A DNA stretch of 64,000 nucleotides, taken from positions 128,001 through 192,000 of IMG/VR virus record IMGVR_UViG_3300031414_000007. The stretch is one strand, 5' to 3'. Made by a program: the position numbers and the translations under genes. Within the stretch, counting starts at the first letter, position 1; every line of letters starts with the position of its first letter. Below, one piece after another: positions 59,929 to 61,545 of the stretch. The notes under the pieces are model-generated. The model ran no database searches. It was given only the letters and a program-made list of their open reading frames with translations, and was not told the DNA's origin. This stretch comes from a virus. Its lineage: Duplodnaviria > Caudoviricetes.

Positions 59929-61545
59929 TCACTCCGAGAATATCTTTTTGTCAGAAAACTTCTTGAGCACAAACTCGGCACAATCGCTCGTCACGCTGTC
60001 TCCATCAACGCAGAGTAGCGCACCGTCATGCTCAAGGGAATACACACCCTTGACGTTCGGACAATTAAGAATAGCATCGAACAAATACAAACTCTCCCAG
60101 CCAGACAGCATGTGGTTGAGAATGCGTTTGTCAATCTTCTTGCCTGTGTCGTCAGGATCAGGATCGTAGTTAGATCCTGTCGGGCACTGGAGTACCCCAT
60201 ACTCGGGTCTTCGTGCATTTTTATTCTTGCGGAACTTAGACCGATACACGTTAAGCAATTCTTTGATCGCAAGATACAGAGGAGTCATCCTCGTGTTCCA
60301 GTCTAAGATTTCCTCTTTCACTCTCGAAGCTGGTACGAAGCGAGCTAACTCTTTATAGACGTTGCTGTACTTCGTTGGTTCAAGTTGACCTGCCGAAAAA
60401 ATTGTACCATACAAACAAACCTTGGCTGCGCGTCTGTCAAGTTTCATAATGCGGCTAATGTCGTCAACAGAACTAATCTGGTCGAACATCGCACACGCAA
60501 TACCGTAAGCGTCAAACTCCCTACGCAACACGTTGAACTGGCTGGACTTCATATCCCAGTTAGTGCCAATCGTGTAGCACTGCTCCTTCAAGTCCGAAGG
60601 TAAGTTCTGGAACCCACCACCGACCTCGAACAATCGCCCGCCAATCTGAGACAGCCTATACTTCGGCCAGTAGCGAACGACAAGAGGTTTCTCGCTAACG
60701 ATCTGAACAGGACCCGACACTATGGTATCGAGTAACGTTTTCACCTGCAGGTATTGCTTCTTCGCCTTGTGATTAGCAATCAACGATTTGTCTTCTAAAT
60801 AAGCAAGTATAGGGTCGATGTTCACTTCATTAGGCATCAGCTTATCAAGTACCTGTCGATAAAGAGCACGGCCACTAAGCACCTTAGAGTTTCCTCTGTC
60901 TCGGTTGCGATCAAGCGAACTAAGATCGTGCGTAGGGCGTTTGAAAGGCAGCTTAGAATTTTTCTGAATCTGTGACCACACTGTCACACCATAATCCTCT
61001 CTTAAAATTTTAAGAGGACTATAGAAACGAATGCGGTACAAAATATCGTAATGCGACTGCGGCTTAAAATGCCCGTACATCCCGTCTAAGATTTCAGGAC
61101 GCATCCTAAACTCCCGACTAAGGCCCTTTTCTTTGTTGTAAGGCTTCGTTTCAAATACGTTAGCCATCAACCACTCAAGGGACCTACCGTACGTGCCTTT
61201 TTTAGACTTGGCATATCGCCCGACAGCAACATTATCGCCACCTCGCTTGTGTCCGAAGACCATCGGTAGCTTTTCTTTTCCTAATGAGCTTGGAAACGGC
61301 ACCCAGACCCGTCCAAACTTCTTTTTCTTGTGTTTACGTGCAGGATAAAGACTGCATTGAAGAATGTGCCAGAAGAATAAGTTCAATTGAGCACGAAACT
61401 CAGATCGCTCGCTCTCGGGGCCGTCGTAGGGACAGGCATCAAGAACATGTTTTCGCACCCACAAAACAACTTCCTTCTCCTGGTAAGAGGGGTTCGTGAT
61501 TAATACTGGCCCCTGACCGGAAACGATTCGTTTTTTCATGTTCAC
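59929..61545 (-). CDS. Divergent, exonuclease-less family A polymerase-like protein
   Basis: C-terminal ~240 aa has GRLFEVGGGFQNLP, WDMKSSQFNVL (motif A), RRAAKVCLYGTIF (motif B) and EHDGALL (motif C) in correct order. Confidence 0.65.
   Translation of the reverse strand: MNMKKRIVSGQGPVLITNPSYQEKEVVLWVRKHVLDACPYDGPESERSEFRAQLNLFFWHILQCSLYPARKHKKKKFGRVWVPFPSSLGKEKLPMVFGHKRGGDNVAVGRYAKSKKGTYGRSLEWLMANVFETKPYNKEKGLSREFRMRPEILDGMYGHFKPQSHYDILYRIRFYSPLKILREDYGVTVWSQIQKNSKLPFKRPTHDLSSLDRNRDRGNSKVLSGRALYRQVLDKLMPNEVNIDPILAYLEDKSLIANHKAKKQYLQVKTLLDTIVSGPVQIVSEKPLVVRYWPKYRLSQIGGRLFEVGGGFQNLPSDLKEQCYTIGTNWDMKSSQFNVLRREFDAYGIACAMFDQISSVDDISRIMKLDRRAAKVCLYGTIFSAGQLEPTKYSNVYKELARFVPASRVKEEILDWNTRMTPLYLAIKELLNVYRSKFRKNKNARRPEYGVLQCPTGSNYDPDPDDTGKKIDKRILNHMLSGWESLYLFDAILNCPNVKGVYSLEHDGALLCVDGDSVTSDCAEFVLKKFSDKKIFSE

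What the first reader, a model, noticed from the sequence alone, without database searches (positions are those of the whole stretch)
59929..61545. A second, minimal family A polymerase-like gene beside an origin-like region
Seen: GRLFEVGGGFQNLP (~60600-60640; cf. TGRLSSxxPNLQNIP), motif A WDMKSSQ (Asp at 60553-60555), motif B RRAAKVCLYGTIF (Lys at 60421-60423) and motif C EHDG (~60025-60030). No exonuclease motifs. The ~290-aa N-terminus is basic and unrelated. Established: these motifs form the catalytic palm and fingers of PolA and T7-type RNA polymerases. The phage already has a complete PolA at 21738-24908. Inference: a specialised enzyme such as an origin primer-synthesiser, a single-subunit RNA polymerase-like or template-independent enzyme, or a repair polymerase. 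It follows a CTGTAAA motif and abuts the repeat/A-tract gap.
Basis: partly seen in the sequence, partly recalled or inferred. Interest (0 to 1): 0.8.

Follow-up and report, generated by a model that had tools for sequence, protein, structure and literature searches.

The report
Second, exonuclease-less TV-Pol polymerase gene
Besides its normal replicative DNA polymerase, this Erwinia/Dickeya-type jumbo phage carries a second, stripped-down family A polymerase of the little-studied "TV-Pol" group (predicted primase-polymerases). It is conserved across related phage genera but is labelled "hypothetical" (once "putative helicase") in the public records checked.

Summary

**Catalytic residues.** In 47 distant homologues the key residues are (nearly) invariant: R304 = Klenow R668, D331 = D705, K375 = K758, D507 = D882.

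**Family.** Pfam, NCBIfam and PDB sequence searches see nothing. The family profile, however, hits Microcystis phage Ma-LMM01 gp030 at E = 3e-23, including the N-terminal domain. Ma-LMM01 is named as a TV-Pol carrier by Iyer et al. 2008. This is therefore a TV-Pol family member, not a new kind of enzyme.

**Context.**
- The genome also has a canonical PolA, a Zn-finger/Toprim primase, a DnaB-like helicase and a clamp loader.
- The gene sits behind the same CTGTAAA motif as PolA and the clamp loader.
- It follows a conserved 390-500-bp gap in five related phage genomes (three named genera and one unclassified phage) checked.
- The 174-aa protein encoded 3 nt downstream is predicted to bind in the polymerase cleft (ipSAE 0.77, best control 0.00).

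**Most likely function.** An active, exonuclease-less DNA primase-polymerase used in replication initiation or restart. Origin function of the gap is untested.

Verdict: new member of a known kind.

The parts
59929..61545 (-). TV-Pol family polymerase gene (538 aa, protein P0001)
   Evidence: ORF. phrog_30690, E 9e-216, function unknown. AF2 model pLDDT 89.3, pTM 0.86. All significant PDB fold hits are family A DNA polymerases. The family profile hits the Ma-LMM01 TV-Pol candidate at E 3e-23.
60955..61545 (-). N-terminal basic domain (residues 1-197), a TV-Pol-associated domain with a possible winged-helix-like core
59950..60954 (-). Polymerase domain (residues 198-532): thumb 198-290, then palm and fingers
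60634..60636 (-). Arg304 codon, invariant Arg of the beta-hairpin (= Klenow R668)
   Evidence: 47/47 conserved; aligned to R668.
60553..60555 (-). Asp331 codon, motif A catalytic Asp (= Klenow D705)
   Evidence: 46/47 conserved. The register is fixed by S335 = I709 and Q336 = E710 in the hhalign output.
60421..60423 (-). Lys375 codon, motif B / O-helix Lys (= Klenow K758), with Y379 = F762 and F383 = Y766
   Evidence: 47/47 conserved. Aligned by hhalign and by BLASTP to the window's own PolA.
60025..60027 (-). Asp507 codon, motif C catalytic Asp (= Klenow D882), within EHDG
   Evidence: 44/44 conserved; H506 42/44; G508 44/44; aligned to H881-D882-E883.
59401..59925 (-). Gene for a 174-aa orphan protein starting 3 nt after the polymerase stop codon; predicted binding partner
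   Evidence: ORF. No Pfam, PHROG or PADLOC family. Homologues are found only in close relatives. Complex prediction: ipSAE 0.77, best control 0.00, with the interface on active-site cleft residues.
61576..61582 (-). CTGTAAA promoter-like motif 31-37 nt upstream of the start codon
   Evidence: There are 13 copies in the window, all on the - strand, including copies ~40 nt upstream of PolA (24950) and the clamp loader (55384). The motif is conserved in the gap alignment of relatives.
61546..61937 (.). 392-bp non-coding gap upstream of the gene. It holds two conserved blocks that occur once in the genome (61804-61822 and 61692-61711) and GTAGC/CTAGC repeats
   Evidence: Alignment of the gap from 7 phages. 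Both blocks occur once in the 210-kb record. No Rfam family. Weak consensus fold, -9.4 kcal/mol. A gap of 390-500 bp is present in all relatives checked, and a gap of 560-1070 bp in distant homologue loci.
21738..24908 (-). Canonical PolA with 3'-5' exonuclease (context: the replicative polymerase)
   Evidence: Pfam DNA_pol_A 3.3e-52 and DNA_pol_A_exo1 2.9e-16. It is the only PF00476 match in the genome.

Best explanation
The gene encodes a member of the TV-Pol family. These are minimal, exonuclease-less relatives of family A DNA polymerases. Here a ~335-residue thumb-palm-fingers module is preceded by the basic N-terminal domain that a subset of TV-Pols carries. All residues needed for two-metal nucleotidyl transfer and for holding the template and primer terminus are conserved, so the enzyme is most likely catalytically active. 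Residues at the sugar-selecting positions suggest it uses dNTPs. The phage already has a replicative PolA, a DnaG/T7-type primase, a DnaB-like helicase and a clamp loader, so this enzyme is an extra. It is expressed from the same promoter-like motif as the replisome genes. By analogy with CcPol-MP, the only characterised TV-Pol, it most likely synthesises DNA de novo or extends short primers (a primase-polymerase) during initiation or restart of phage DNA replication. It probably does so as a complex with the 174-aa protein encoded immediately downstream, and possibly on the conserved non-coding region just upstream. Shown here: fold, conserved residues, family membership, synteny and shared motif. 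Inferred: catalytic activity, dNTP use, priming, the partner's role and any origin link.
For: **Fold.**
- AF2 model pLDDT 89.3, pTM 0.86.
- Foldseek against the PDB gave 47 hits at E <= 1e-3, all family A DNA polymerases.

**Residue equivalences** (hhalign E 1.8e-5) and conservation:
- R304 = R668 (47/47).
- Q313 = Q677 (46/47).
- D331 = D705 (46/47).
- K375 = K758 (47/47).
- Y379 = F762 (39/47).
- Position 481 = Q849 (Gln in 37/46).
- H506 = H881.
- D507 = D882 (44/44).

**Family.**
- The A1 profile hits Ma-LMM01 gp030 at E 3e-23 over profile positions 6-365.
- gp030 is a 506-aa protein next to an IS605 OrfB transposase. This matches the phage and the context named by Iyer et al. 2008 (PMC2579912).
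- Fold hits also include the virophage Zamilon replication protein and SF3/D5-helicase fusions.

**dNTP rather than rNTP.**
- Gln336 (42/47) sits at the Klenow E710 steric-gate position. T7 RNAP has Gly542 there.
- Phe383 sits where T7 RNAP has the 2'-OH-sensing Tyr639.
- The profile matches Klenow (E 5e-4) and T7 DNAP (9e-4) better than T7 RNAP (0.22).

**Replication context.**
- CTGTAAA lies upstream of this gene, PolA and the clamp loader.
- The genome also has a primase and a helicase.
- The gene sits at the same syntenic place, intact, in the three named genera checked at locus level (Alexandravirus, Sasquatchvirus, Salmondvirus) and in Yersinia phage fHe-Yen9-02; a more distant homologue lies in the matching region of Rivsvirus pEa_SNUABM_5.

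**Partner.**
- Complex prediction gave a score of 0.77 against a best control of 0.00. That mark was reached by 58 of 80 solved complexes and 2 of 110 mismatched pairs. These counts hold only roughly, because my own alignments were used.
- The three runs agree in at least 78% of contacts, and the partner's pLDDT is at least 83.

**Precedent.** CcPol needs the small protein MP to prime de novo with dNTPs (PMC7581432; PMC10061031).
Against: - No activity has been measured for this protein or any close relative. CcPol is the only TV-Pol that has been assayed.
- The phage already has a conventional primase, so a second priming enzyme is not obviously needed.
- Typical TV-Pol partners are absent from the neighbourhood: no D5/SF3 helicase, integrase or resolvase.
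- The Arg of the RxxxK motif (Klenow R754) is R/K in only 26 of 47 homologues.
- Klenow E883 is an invariant Gly here.
- The predicted partner sits on the O-helix and catalytic residues. That pose could equally mean inhibition, and models built without DNA can place partners in DNA clefts.
- The partner family is not detectable beyond close relatives. The protein at the same position in phage Alexandra is unrelated by BLASTP and hhalign.
- Nothing shows that the upstream gap is an origin. There are no significant repeats and no GC-skew turning point.
Confidence: 0.6

Rival explanations
1. It is a primer-dependent repair, gap-filling or translesion DNA polymerase (an exonuclease-less enzyme in the manner of Pol theta or Pol nu) that never primes de novo.
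Against: By sequence the protein belongs to TV-Pol, not to the Pol theta/nu lineage. It has a dedicated basic N-terminal domain and a tightly coupled small partner, as primase-type TV-Pols do. No lesion-bypass inserts were identified.
Confidence: 0.15
2. The polymerase and the 174-aa protein form a two-gene module in which the small protein plugs or is acted on in the active site. It could be an inhibitor or regulator, a protein primer, or a nucleotidylation substrate. The module's role would then be something other than ordinary priming, such as anti-defence or replication control.
For: In the predicted complex the partner touches R304, D331, R372, K375, Y379, F383, E505, H506 and K528, which is the nucleotide and template cleft. 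The score is 0.77 against a best control of 0.00; 58 of 80 solved complexes and 2 of 110 mismatched pairs reached the mark; runs agree in at least 78% of contacts; partner pLDDT is at least 83. The two genes are only 3 nt apart. The partner has invariant Tyr, Asp and Trp residues in the contacting C-terminal helix.
Against: The pose is a prediction made without DNA or nucleotides. No family A polymerase is known to use a protein primer (my knowledge). A phage of this kind has no evident need for protein priming. There are no PADLOC hits. The partner is not conserved across the wider family, while the polymerase is.
Confidence: 0.1
3. It is an RNA-synthesising enzyme: either a minimal single-subunit RNA polymerase that transcribes from a phage promoter, or one that makes an RNA primer at an origin.
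For: TV-Pols, PolA and T7-like RNA polymerases share one catalytic core (PMC2579912). The phage uses short single-box promoter-like motifs. No Sigma70_r2 domain was found in the 79%-complete record. Two AFDB entries named 'DNA-directed RNA polymerase' appear among weak fold hits.
Against: Gln336 at the steric-gate position and Phe383 at the T7 RNAP Tyr639 position argue for dNTPs. hhalign to T7 RNAP gives E 0.22, against 5e-4 for Klenow. None of the top 50 PDB matches listed by either Foldseek or VIA-align is an RNA polymerase. The gene itself lies behind the CTGTAAA motif, so it could not be the enzyme that first reads that motif.
Confidence: 0.08
4. It is a domesticated or decaying remnant of a TV-Pol mobile element and no longer catalyses anything.
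For: TV-Pols are typically carried by transposons. In Ma-LMM01 the homologue sits beside transposases.
Against: The catalytic Asp, Arg and Lys residues are invariant across homologues at 17-44% identity. The gene is intact and syntenic in the three named genera and the Yersinia phage checked at locus level. No transposase or integrase lies nearby.
Confidence: 0.05

Closest known systems
TV-Pol family (Iyer, Abhiman & Aravind 2008, Biol Direct 3:39), for example Microcystis phage Ma-LMM01 gp030, and Sputnik V13 / Zamilon replication protein
   Same: A minimal thumb-palm-fingers core related to PolA, with no exonuclease. It has an invariant hairpin Arg, two palm Asp residues and a fingers Lys. 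The N-terminal accessory domain seen in a subset of TV-Pols is present. The profile match to Ma-LMM01 gp030 is E 3e-23. Fold hits include the Zamilon protein and SF3-helicase fusions.
   Different: It is not fused or linked to a D5/SF3 helicase and is not in a transposon with an integrase or resolvase. Instead it is a syntenic, apparently core gene of ~250-267-kb jumbo phages that also have a full replisome. The Arg of RxxxK is only partly conserved. A translationally coupled orphan partner is predicted to bind in the cleft.
CcPol-MP primase-polymerase of SCCmec (Bebel et al. 2020, eLife 9:e55478) and the PolA-SSB primases (Rice 2023)
   Same: An exonuclease-less A-family polymerase assigned to TV-Pol. 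A small protein of no known family is encoded immediately downstream and is needed for (CcPol) or predicted to bind (here) the polymerase.
   Different: CcPol lacks the TV-Pol N-terminal domain. MP is a predicted OB-fold SSB that contacts the polymerase's N-terminal region, whereas this partner's fold is unknown and it is predicted to sit on the fingers and active-site cleft. In SCCmec a helicase follows in the operon; none does here. No sequence similarity to CcPol was tested, because no CcPol sequence was at hand.
Classical family A DNA polymerases (E. coli Pol I Klenow, Taq, T7 gp5, Pol theta), including this phage's own PolA at 21738-24908
   Different: Pfam DNA_pol_A gave no hit, and identity is only 10-17% in the structural alignments. 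There is no 3'-5' or 5'-3' exonuclease. The polymerase module is ~335 aa, against ~410 in Klenow. Three positions differ: E883 is Gly, Y766 is Phe and E710 is Gln. The N-terminal domain is different.
T7-like single-subunit RNA polymerases
   Same: A common ancestral palm and fingers core with motif A and C aspartates.
   Different: There is no detectable profile similarity (hhalign E 0.22). The ribose-selecting Tyr639 and Gly542 equivalents are absent. There is no promoter-recognition N-terminal domain or specificity loop of the T7 type, and the protein is far smaller (538 vs 883 aa).

Membership tests
TV-Pol (Iyer et al. 2008) | Significant sequence-profile relationship to a founding member | tested here: met
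   The profile of 47 homologues (A1) hits Ma-LMM01 gp030 at E 3e-23, 78 bits, profile positions 6-365. gp030 lies beside IS605-type transposases, as the paper describes for that phage. I could not check the GI number in the paper's figure.
TV-Pol (Iyer et al. 2008) | Minimal core made of a thumb of antiparallel helices, an RRM-like palm and fingers inserted after the first palm strand | tested here: met
TV-Pol (Iyer et al. 2008) | Beta-hairpin carrying an absolutely conserved Arg | tested here: met
   Strands 296-298 and 305-307. R304 is 47/47 and aligns to Klenow R668.
TV-Pol (Iyer et al. 2008) | Two conserved metal-binding Asp residues in the palm | tested here: met
   D331 is 46/47 and D507 is 44/44. 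They align to D705 and D882.
TV-Pol (Iyer et al. 2008) | RxxxK motif in the first fingers helix | tested here: inconclusive
   K375 is 47/47. Position 371 is Arg in this protein but only R 13 / K 13 of 47 across the family.
TV-Pol (Iyer et al. 2008) | No fused or linked nuclease domain | tested here: met
   No Pfam exonuclease hit. The N-terminal domain does not match exonuclease folds. The neighbours have no nuclease family.
TV-Pol (Iyer et al. 2008) | Typical context: fusion or linkage to a D5-like helicase, or an N-terminal helical domain plus integrase/resolvase/transposase | tested here: not met
   The N-terminal domain is present. However, no helicase, integrase, resolvase or transposase lies within ~8 kb here or in pEa_SNUABM_1. 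This is a contextual feature, not a defining one.
Family A DNA polymerase (Pfam PF00476 DNA_pol_A) | Match to the curated family model | tested here: not met
   No Pfam hit at E <= 10. A genome-wide PF00476 search finds only the canonical PolA. None of 47 homologues hits it.
Family A DNA polymerase (Pfam PF00476 DNA_pol_A) | Polymerase fold with motif A, B and C residues in place | tested here: met
   Three positions differ from Klenow: E883 is Gly, Y766 is Phe and E710 is Gln.
T7-like single-subunit RNA polymerase (PF00940) | Family model match or profile similarity | tested here: inconclusive
   The PF00940 search of the genome found nothing, but the control genomes were silent too. hhalign to the T7 RNAP polymerase region gives E 0.22.
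T7-like single-subunit RNA polymerase (PF00940) | Ribose-selecting residues (Tyr639 equivalent; small residue at the Gly542 position) | tested here: not met
   Position 383 is Phe (28/47; Tyr in 3/47). Position 336 is Gln (42/47).
CcPol-MP / PolA-SSB primases | Small partner encoded next to the polymerase that binds it | tested here: met
   The gene starts 3 nt after the stop codon. Complex prediction gives 0.77 against a best control of 0.00 (58/80 solved complexes and 2/110 mismatched pairs reach the mark; runs agree in at least 78% of contacts; partner pLDDT at least 83). This is a prediction only.
CcPol-MP / PolA-SSB primases | The partner is an OB-fold ssDNA-binding protein | not tested
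There is no Pfam or PHROG family.
CcPol-MP / PolA-SSB primases | De novo, template-dependent DNA synthesis with dNTPs | not testable with these tools
   This needs biochemistry.

The most novel reading that the evidence does not exclude
The jumbo phage uses a two-subunit family A primase-polymerase as its origin-specific initiator. In this reading the basic N-terminal domain recognises the conserved, genome-unique blocks in the upstream gap. The orphan 174-aa protein inserts into the polymerase cleft, where it either supplies the initiating site as an initiation factor or acts as a protein primer. The enzyme then lays down the first DNA primer, which is handed to the replicative PolA. This would be a replication-initiation mechanism not described for tailed phages.
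Probability: 0.15. Interest if true: 0.8.

Novelty: new member of a known kind. Interest (0 to 1): 0.55.

Why it matters
TV-Pols were predicted in 2008 to be primase-polymerases. According to Bebel et al. 2020, only one member (CcPol of SCCmec) has been tested biochemically. Here a TV-Pol is a conserved, syntenic gene in cultivable Erwinia, Dickeya and Yersinia jumbo phages that also have a complete conventional replisome. That offers a tractable system to ask what a second, exonuclease-less family A enzyme adds, for example origin firing, repriming or repair, and how a small partner might turn a polymerase into a primase. There is also a practical point: all 50 matching GenBank phage records label the gene 'hypothetical' or, once, 'putative helicase', and three of the records inspected have truncated start calls. 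The annotation can be corrected.

Tried and rejected
**Sequence searches that found nothing for the polymerase**
- Pfam, NCBIfam and PDB sequence searches with the single protein.
- The 47-sequence profile against PDB sequences and against Pfam, member by member. The similarity to PolA is beyond plain HMM reach.
- hhalign of the full-length family alignment against the single PolA sequence gave only a spurious 14-column match. It worked only after trimming to the polymerase domain and using a small PolA alignment.

**N-terminal domain**

**Upstream gap**
- No Rfam family.
- The RNAalifold consensus is weak: -9.4 kcal/mol, covariation term -0.19.
- The repeat finder found only short two-copy repeats.
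- TGTAGC is not enriched in the window (25 found, 31 expected).
- There are no sigma-70-like promoters on the coding strand in the gap.
- Cumulative GC skew has no turning point there.
- I therefore do not claim an origin or an RNA gene.

**Partner protein**
- No Pfam, PHROG, PADLOC or Atlas lead.
- The proteins at the same position downstream of the gene in phage Alexandra, and in distant loci L008-L010 and pEa_SNUABM_5, show no demonstrable homology to it.

**Other checks**
- A Sigma70_r2 search of the genome found nothing. The T7-type RNAP Pfam search was uninformative because the controls were silent.
- The apparent truncations of the gene in JA11, JA13 and AD1 are start-codon annotation artefacts, not gene decay.
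Full report
**1. What is there**

The window comes from a 210.5-kb IMG/VR phage record that CheckV estimates to be 79% complete. It belongs to the Alexandravirus-type jumbo phages of Erwinia and Dickeya. The region is 88.7% identical in DNA, and the protein 96% identical, to Erwinia phage pEa_SNUABM_1.

ORF 59929-61545 on the minus strand encodes 538 aa (protein P0001).
- GRLFEVGGGFQNLP = residues 303-316.
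- Motif A Asp = D331 (60555-60553).
- Motif B Lys = K375 (60423-60421).
- EHDG = residues 505-508.

The complete replicative PolA at 21738-24908 is real. It matches Pfam DNA_pol_A at 3.3e-52 and the 3'-5' exonuclease domain at 2.9e-16, and it is the only PF00476 match in the genome.

**2. Is it a polymerase?**

Plain sequence methods see nothing:
- No Pfam, NCBIfam or PDB sequence hit.
- Only PHROG 30690, of unknown function.
- BLASTP against the phage's own PolA is marginal (E 0.033), although it aligns motif B with motif B and EHDG with VHDS.

An exhaustive HMMER search of 1.84 billion representative proteins found 53 relatives, 23 of them at E <= 1e-10. I aligned 47 of them, at 17-44% identity to P0001 (alignment A1). 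The columns that stay (nearly) invariant are exactly the polymerase motifs:
- R304: 47/47.
- G311: 45/47.
- Q313: 46/47.
- K320: 44/47.
- N329: 45/47.
- D331: 46/47.
- Q336: 42/47.
- K375: 47/47.
- Y379: 39/47.
- G482: 45/46.
- E484: 46/46.
- H506: 42/44.
- D507: 44/44.
- G508: 44/44.
- K528: 42/44.

AlphaFold2 on this alignment gave a confident model, pLDDT 89.3 and pTM 0.86.
- Foldseek against the PDB returned 47 hits at E <= 1e-3. Every one is a family A DNA polymerase: Klenow, Taq, Bst, M. smegmatis Pol1, apicoplast Pol, Pol theta, Pol nu or T7 gp5.

The polymerase module is therefore residues ~198-532 and includes the thumb. Only residues 1-197 form a separate domain.

**3. Residue equivalences**

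I fetched E. coli Pol I and the T7 gp5 and gp1 sequences. hhalign of the trimmed family alignment against a small PolA alignment gave E 1.8e-5 over 222 columns. The equivalences are:
- R304 = R668.
- Q313 = Q677.
- R371/R372 = R754/R755.
- K375 = K758.
- Y379 = F762.
- F383 = Y766.
- Position 481 (Gln in 37/46 homologues) = Q849.
- H506 = H881.
- D507 = D882.
- G508 = E883.

Around motif A the program inserted a gap. The register after that gap (S335 = I709, Q336 = E710) is the ungapped register in which D331 = D705.

The full catalytic and DNA-contacting set of a family A polymerase is therefore present and under purifying selection. This argues for an active, template-directed enzyme.

The sugar-selecting positions read as follows:
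- Gln336, where DNA polymerases have the Glu steric gate and T7 RNAP has Gly542.
- Phe383, where T7 RNAP has Tyr639.

From established knowledge of these residues I infer dNTP use. This is an inference, not a result. Consistent with it, the family profile aligns to Klenow (E 5e-4) and T7 DNA polymerase (9e-4) but not to T7 RNAP (0.22).

**4. Which family?**

Fold hits outside the protein's own clade include three kinds of protein:
- The virophage Zamilon 'DNA replication protein'.
- Proteins with a C-terminal SF3/D5 helicase.
- 500-800-aa bacterial proteins that match over the whole length, including the N-terminal domain.

This is the signature of the TV-Pol family of Iyer, Abhiman and Aravind (PMC2579912). 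They describe it as a minimal PolA/T7-RNAP-like core without nuclease, made of a thumb, a hairpin Arg, two palm Asp residues and fingers with RxxxK. The core is found stand-alone, fused to a D5-like helicase, or preceded by an N-terminal helical domain.

I tested membership by sequence. The A1 profile, searched against the genome of Microcystis phage Ma-LMM01 (named in that paper as a TV-Pol carrier), hits one ORF at E 3e-23 over profile positions 6-365. That ORF is gp030, 506 aa, with no Pfam family, next to IS605-type transposases. This is the context the paper describes. The match includes the N-terminal domain.

Folded alone (pLDDT 78), the N-terminal domain finds three things in AFDB:
- A 301-aa 'Transposase' entry, at E 3.9e-7.
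- The segment just N-terminal of the palm in an 806-aa PolA-palm protein.
- A stand-alone 232-aa protein.

One family feature is only partly met. The Arg of RxxxK is Arg here but R/K in only 26 of 47 relatives.

**5. Context**

Elsewhere in the genome there are:
- A Zn-finger/Toprim primase of 352 aa (phrog_47 'DNA primase', 7e-24).
- A DnaB-like helicase of 502 aa.
- A clamp loader, in this window at 54062-55345.

The TV-Pol is thus an extra enzyme, not the only primase or polymerase.

All 13 CTGTAAA copies in the window are on the coding strand. Most lie 25-45 nt upstream of start codons, including those of PolA (24950), the clamp loader (55384) and this gene (61576). This suggests co-expression with the replisome genes. 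The overall count is not itself significant (13 found, 8.1 expected). The strand bias and the positions carry the argument.

The gene order is the same in AD1, pEa_SNUABM_2, Y3, fHe-Yen9-02 and Alexandra: a 369-aa gene, a 219-aa gene, a gap of 390-500 bp, the TV-Pol, a gene of ~165-174 aa, small genes, and then (in the three Alexandravirus genomes) a gene annotated as a peptidase. Distant homologues in metagenomic phage contigs also follow an intergenic gap of 560-1070 bp and are followed within about 10 nt by a small gene.

The gap contains two blocks that are nearly identical even in Y3 and fHe-Yen9-02, and each occurs only once in the genome:
- ACACGGTTTAGACGACCTA at window 61804-61822.
- GTGCCGCCTAAAGATGTACC at window 61692-61711.

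The gap also carries scattered GTAGC/CTAGC repeats. I found no Rfam family, no convincing consensus RNA fold, no significant iterons and no GC-skew turn. The blocks are probably protein-binding DNA, but an origin is not shown.

**6. The downstream partner**

The next gene (59401-59925, 174 aa) starts 3 nt after the polymerase stop codon. It has no family in Pfam, PHROG, PADLOC or the Atlas. Its homologues are found only in close relatives.

Because CcPol needs the small protein MP to prime (PMC7581432, PMC10061031), I tested binding in silico:
- Score 0.77 against a best control of 0.00.
- That mark was reached by 58 of 80 solved complexes and 2 of 110 mismatched pairs. The counts hold only roughly, because my own alignments were used.
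- The three runs agree in at least 78% of contacts.
- The partner's pLDDT is at least 83.

I know of no solved complex of this kind, so recall from a known structure is unlikely, though I cannot exclude it.

The predicted interface covers the hairpin (299-306, including R304), D331, the O-helix (372-396, including K375, Y379 and F383), fingers helices 414-425, E505/H506 and K528-532. The partner is therefore placed in the nucleotide and template cleft. Three readings fit this pose:
- An initiation factor that builds a priming site.
- An inhibitor or regulator.
- A modelling artefact from the absence of DNA.

The proteins at the same position in Alexandra and in more distant loci are not detectably related to it. 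This weakens the idea of a universal partner.

**7. Verdict**

The protein is a previously unannotated member of the known TV-Pol family. It most likely acts as an active, exonuclease-less DNA primase-polymerase in replication initiation or restart, probably together with its downstream partner.

I put fold and family membership at about 0.9, catalytic activity at about 0.75, and a priming role in replication at about 0.4-0.5. The full text-searchable literature has no paper linking TV-Pol to these phages. No TV-Pol other than CcPol has been characterised.

This scan had already noted the same stretch in another reading of this genome (note e1-5390493).

Noticed in passing
L017:1501-3117 (Dickeya phage AD1), L025:1174-2835 (JA11), L024:1111-2835 (JA13): The GenBank CDSs for this gene are truncated start calls: AD1 gp214 is annotated from 2065, JA11 gp200 from 1618 and JA13_200 from 1981. 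The full open frames (538, 553 and 574 aa) are intact and match the whole protein.
   Followed up: yes
L002:5935-7602 (Erwinia phage pEa_SNUABM_5): A distant homologue (24% identity over residues 33-383) is annotated 'putative helicase'. Nothing in this analysis supports a helicase; the family has a polymerase fold.
   Followed up: partly
window 12620-61582, minus strand: All 13 CTGTAAA copies lie on the coding strand. Most are extended to CTGTAAATA and preceded by an A/T-rich stretch, 25-45 nt upstream of start codons of replication genes (PolA, clamp loader and others). This looks like a phage-specific single-box promoter class.
   Followed up: partly
window 61692-61711 and 61804-61822: Two non-coding blocks, GTGCCGCCTAAAGATGTACC and ACACGGTTTAGACGACCTA, are conserved almost letter for letter in phages whose flanking proteins are only ~70% identical. 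Each occurs once in the genome. There is no Rfam match and no convincing RNA fold.
   Followed up: partly
L008:7440-8000, L009:6929-8000, L010:7265-8000: In distant metagenomic phage loci the TV-Pol homologue also follows an unusually long non-coding gap (560-1070 bp) and is followed within about 10 nt by a small gene. In L009 that small protein has weak HTH-type PHROG hits, and a clamp loader lies ~6.5 kb downstream, as in the window.
   Followed up: no
window 58641-59361: The 217-aa ORF listed at 58641-59294 is probably two genes, as annotated in relatives: a ~64-aa gene at 59167-59361 preceded by a CTGTAAA motif at 59392, and a 174-aa gene at 58641-59165. Neither has a known family.
   Followed up: no
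G000:C1:196172-197230 (outside the window; L004:1339-2397): The phage's conventional primase (352 aa, Zn-finger plus Toprim_2, phrog_47) lies ~5 kb beyond the window's end. The DnaB-like helicase lies far away, at about 9.1-10.6 kb of the record.
   Followed up: partly
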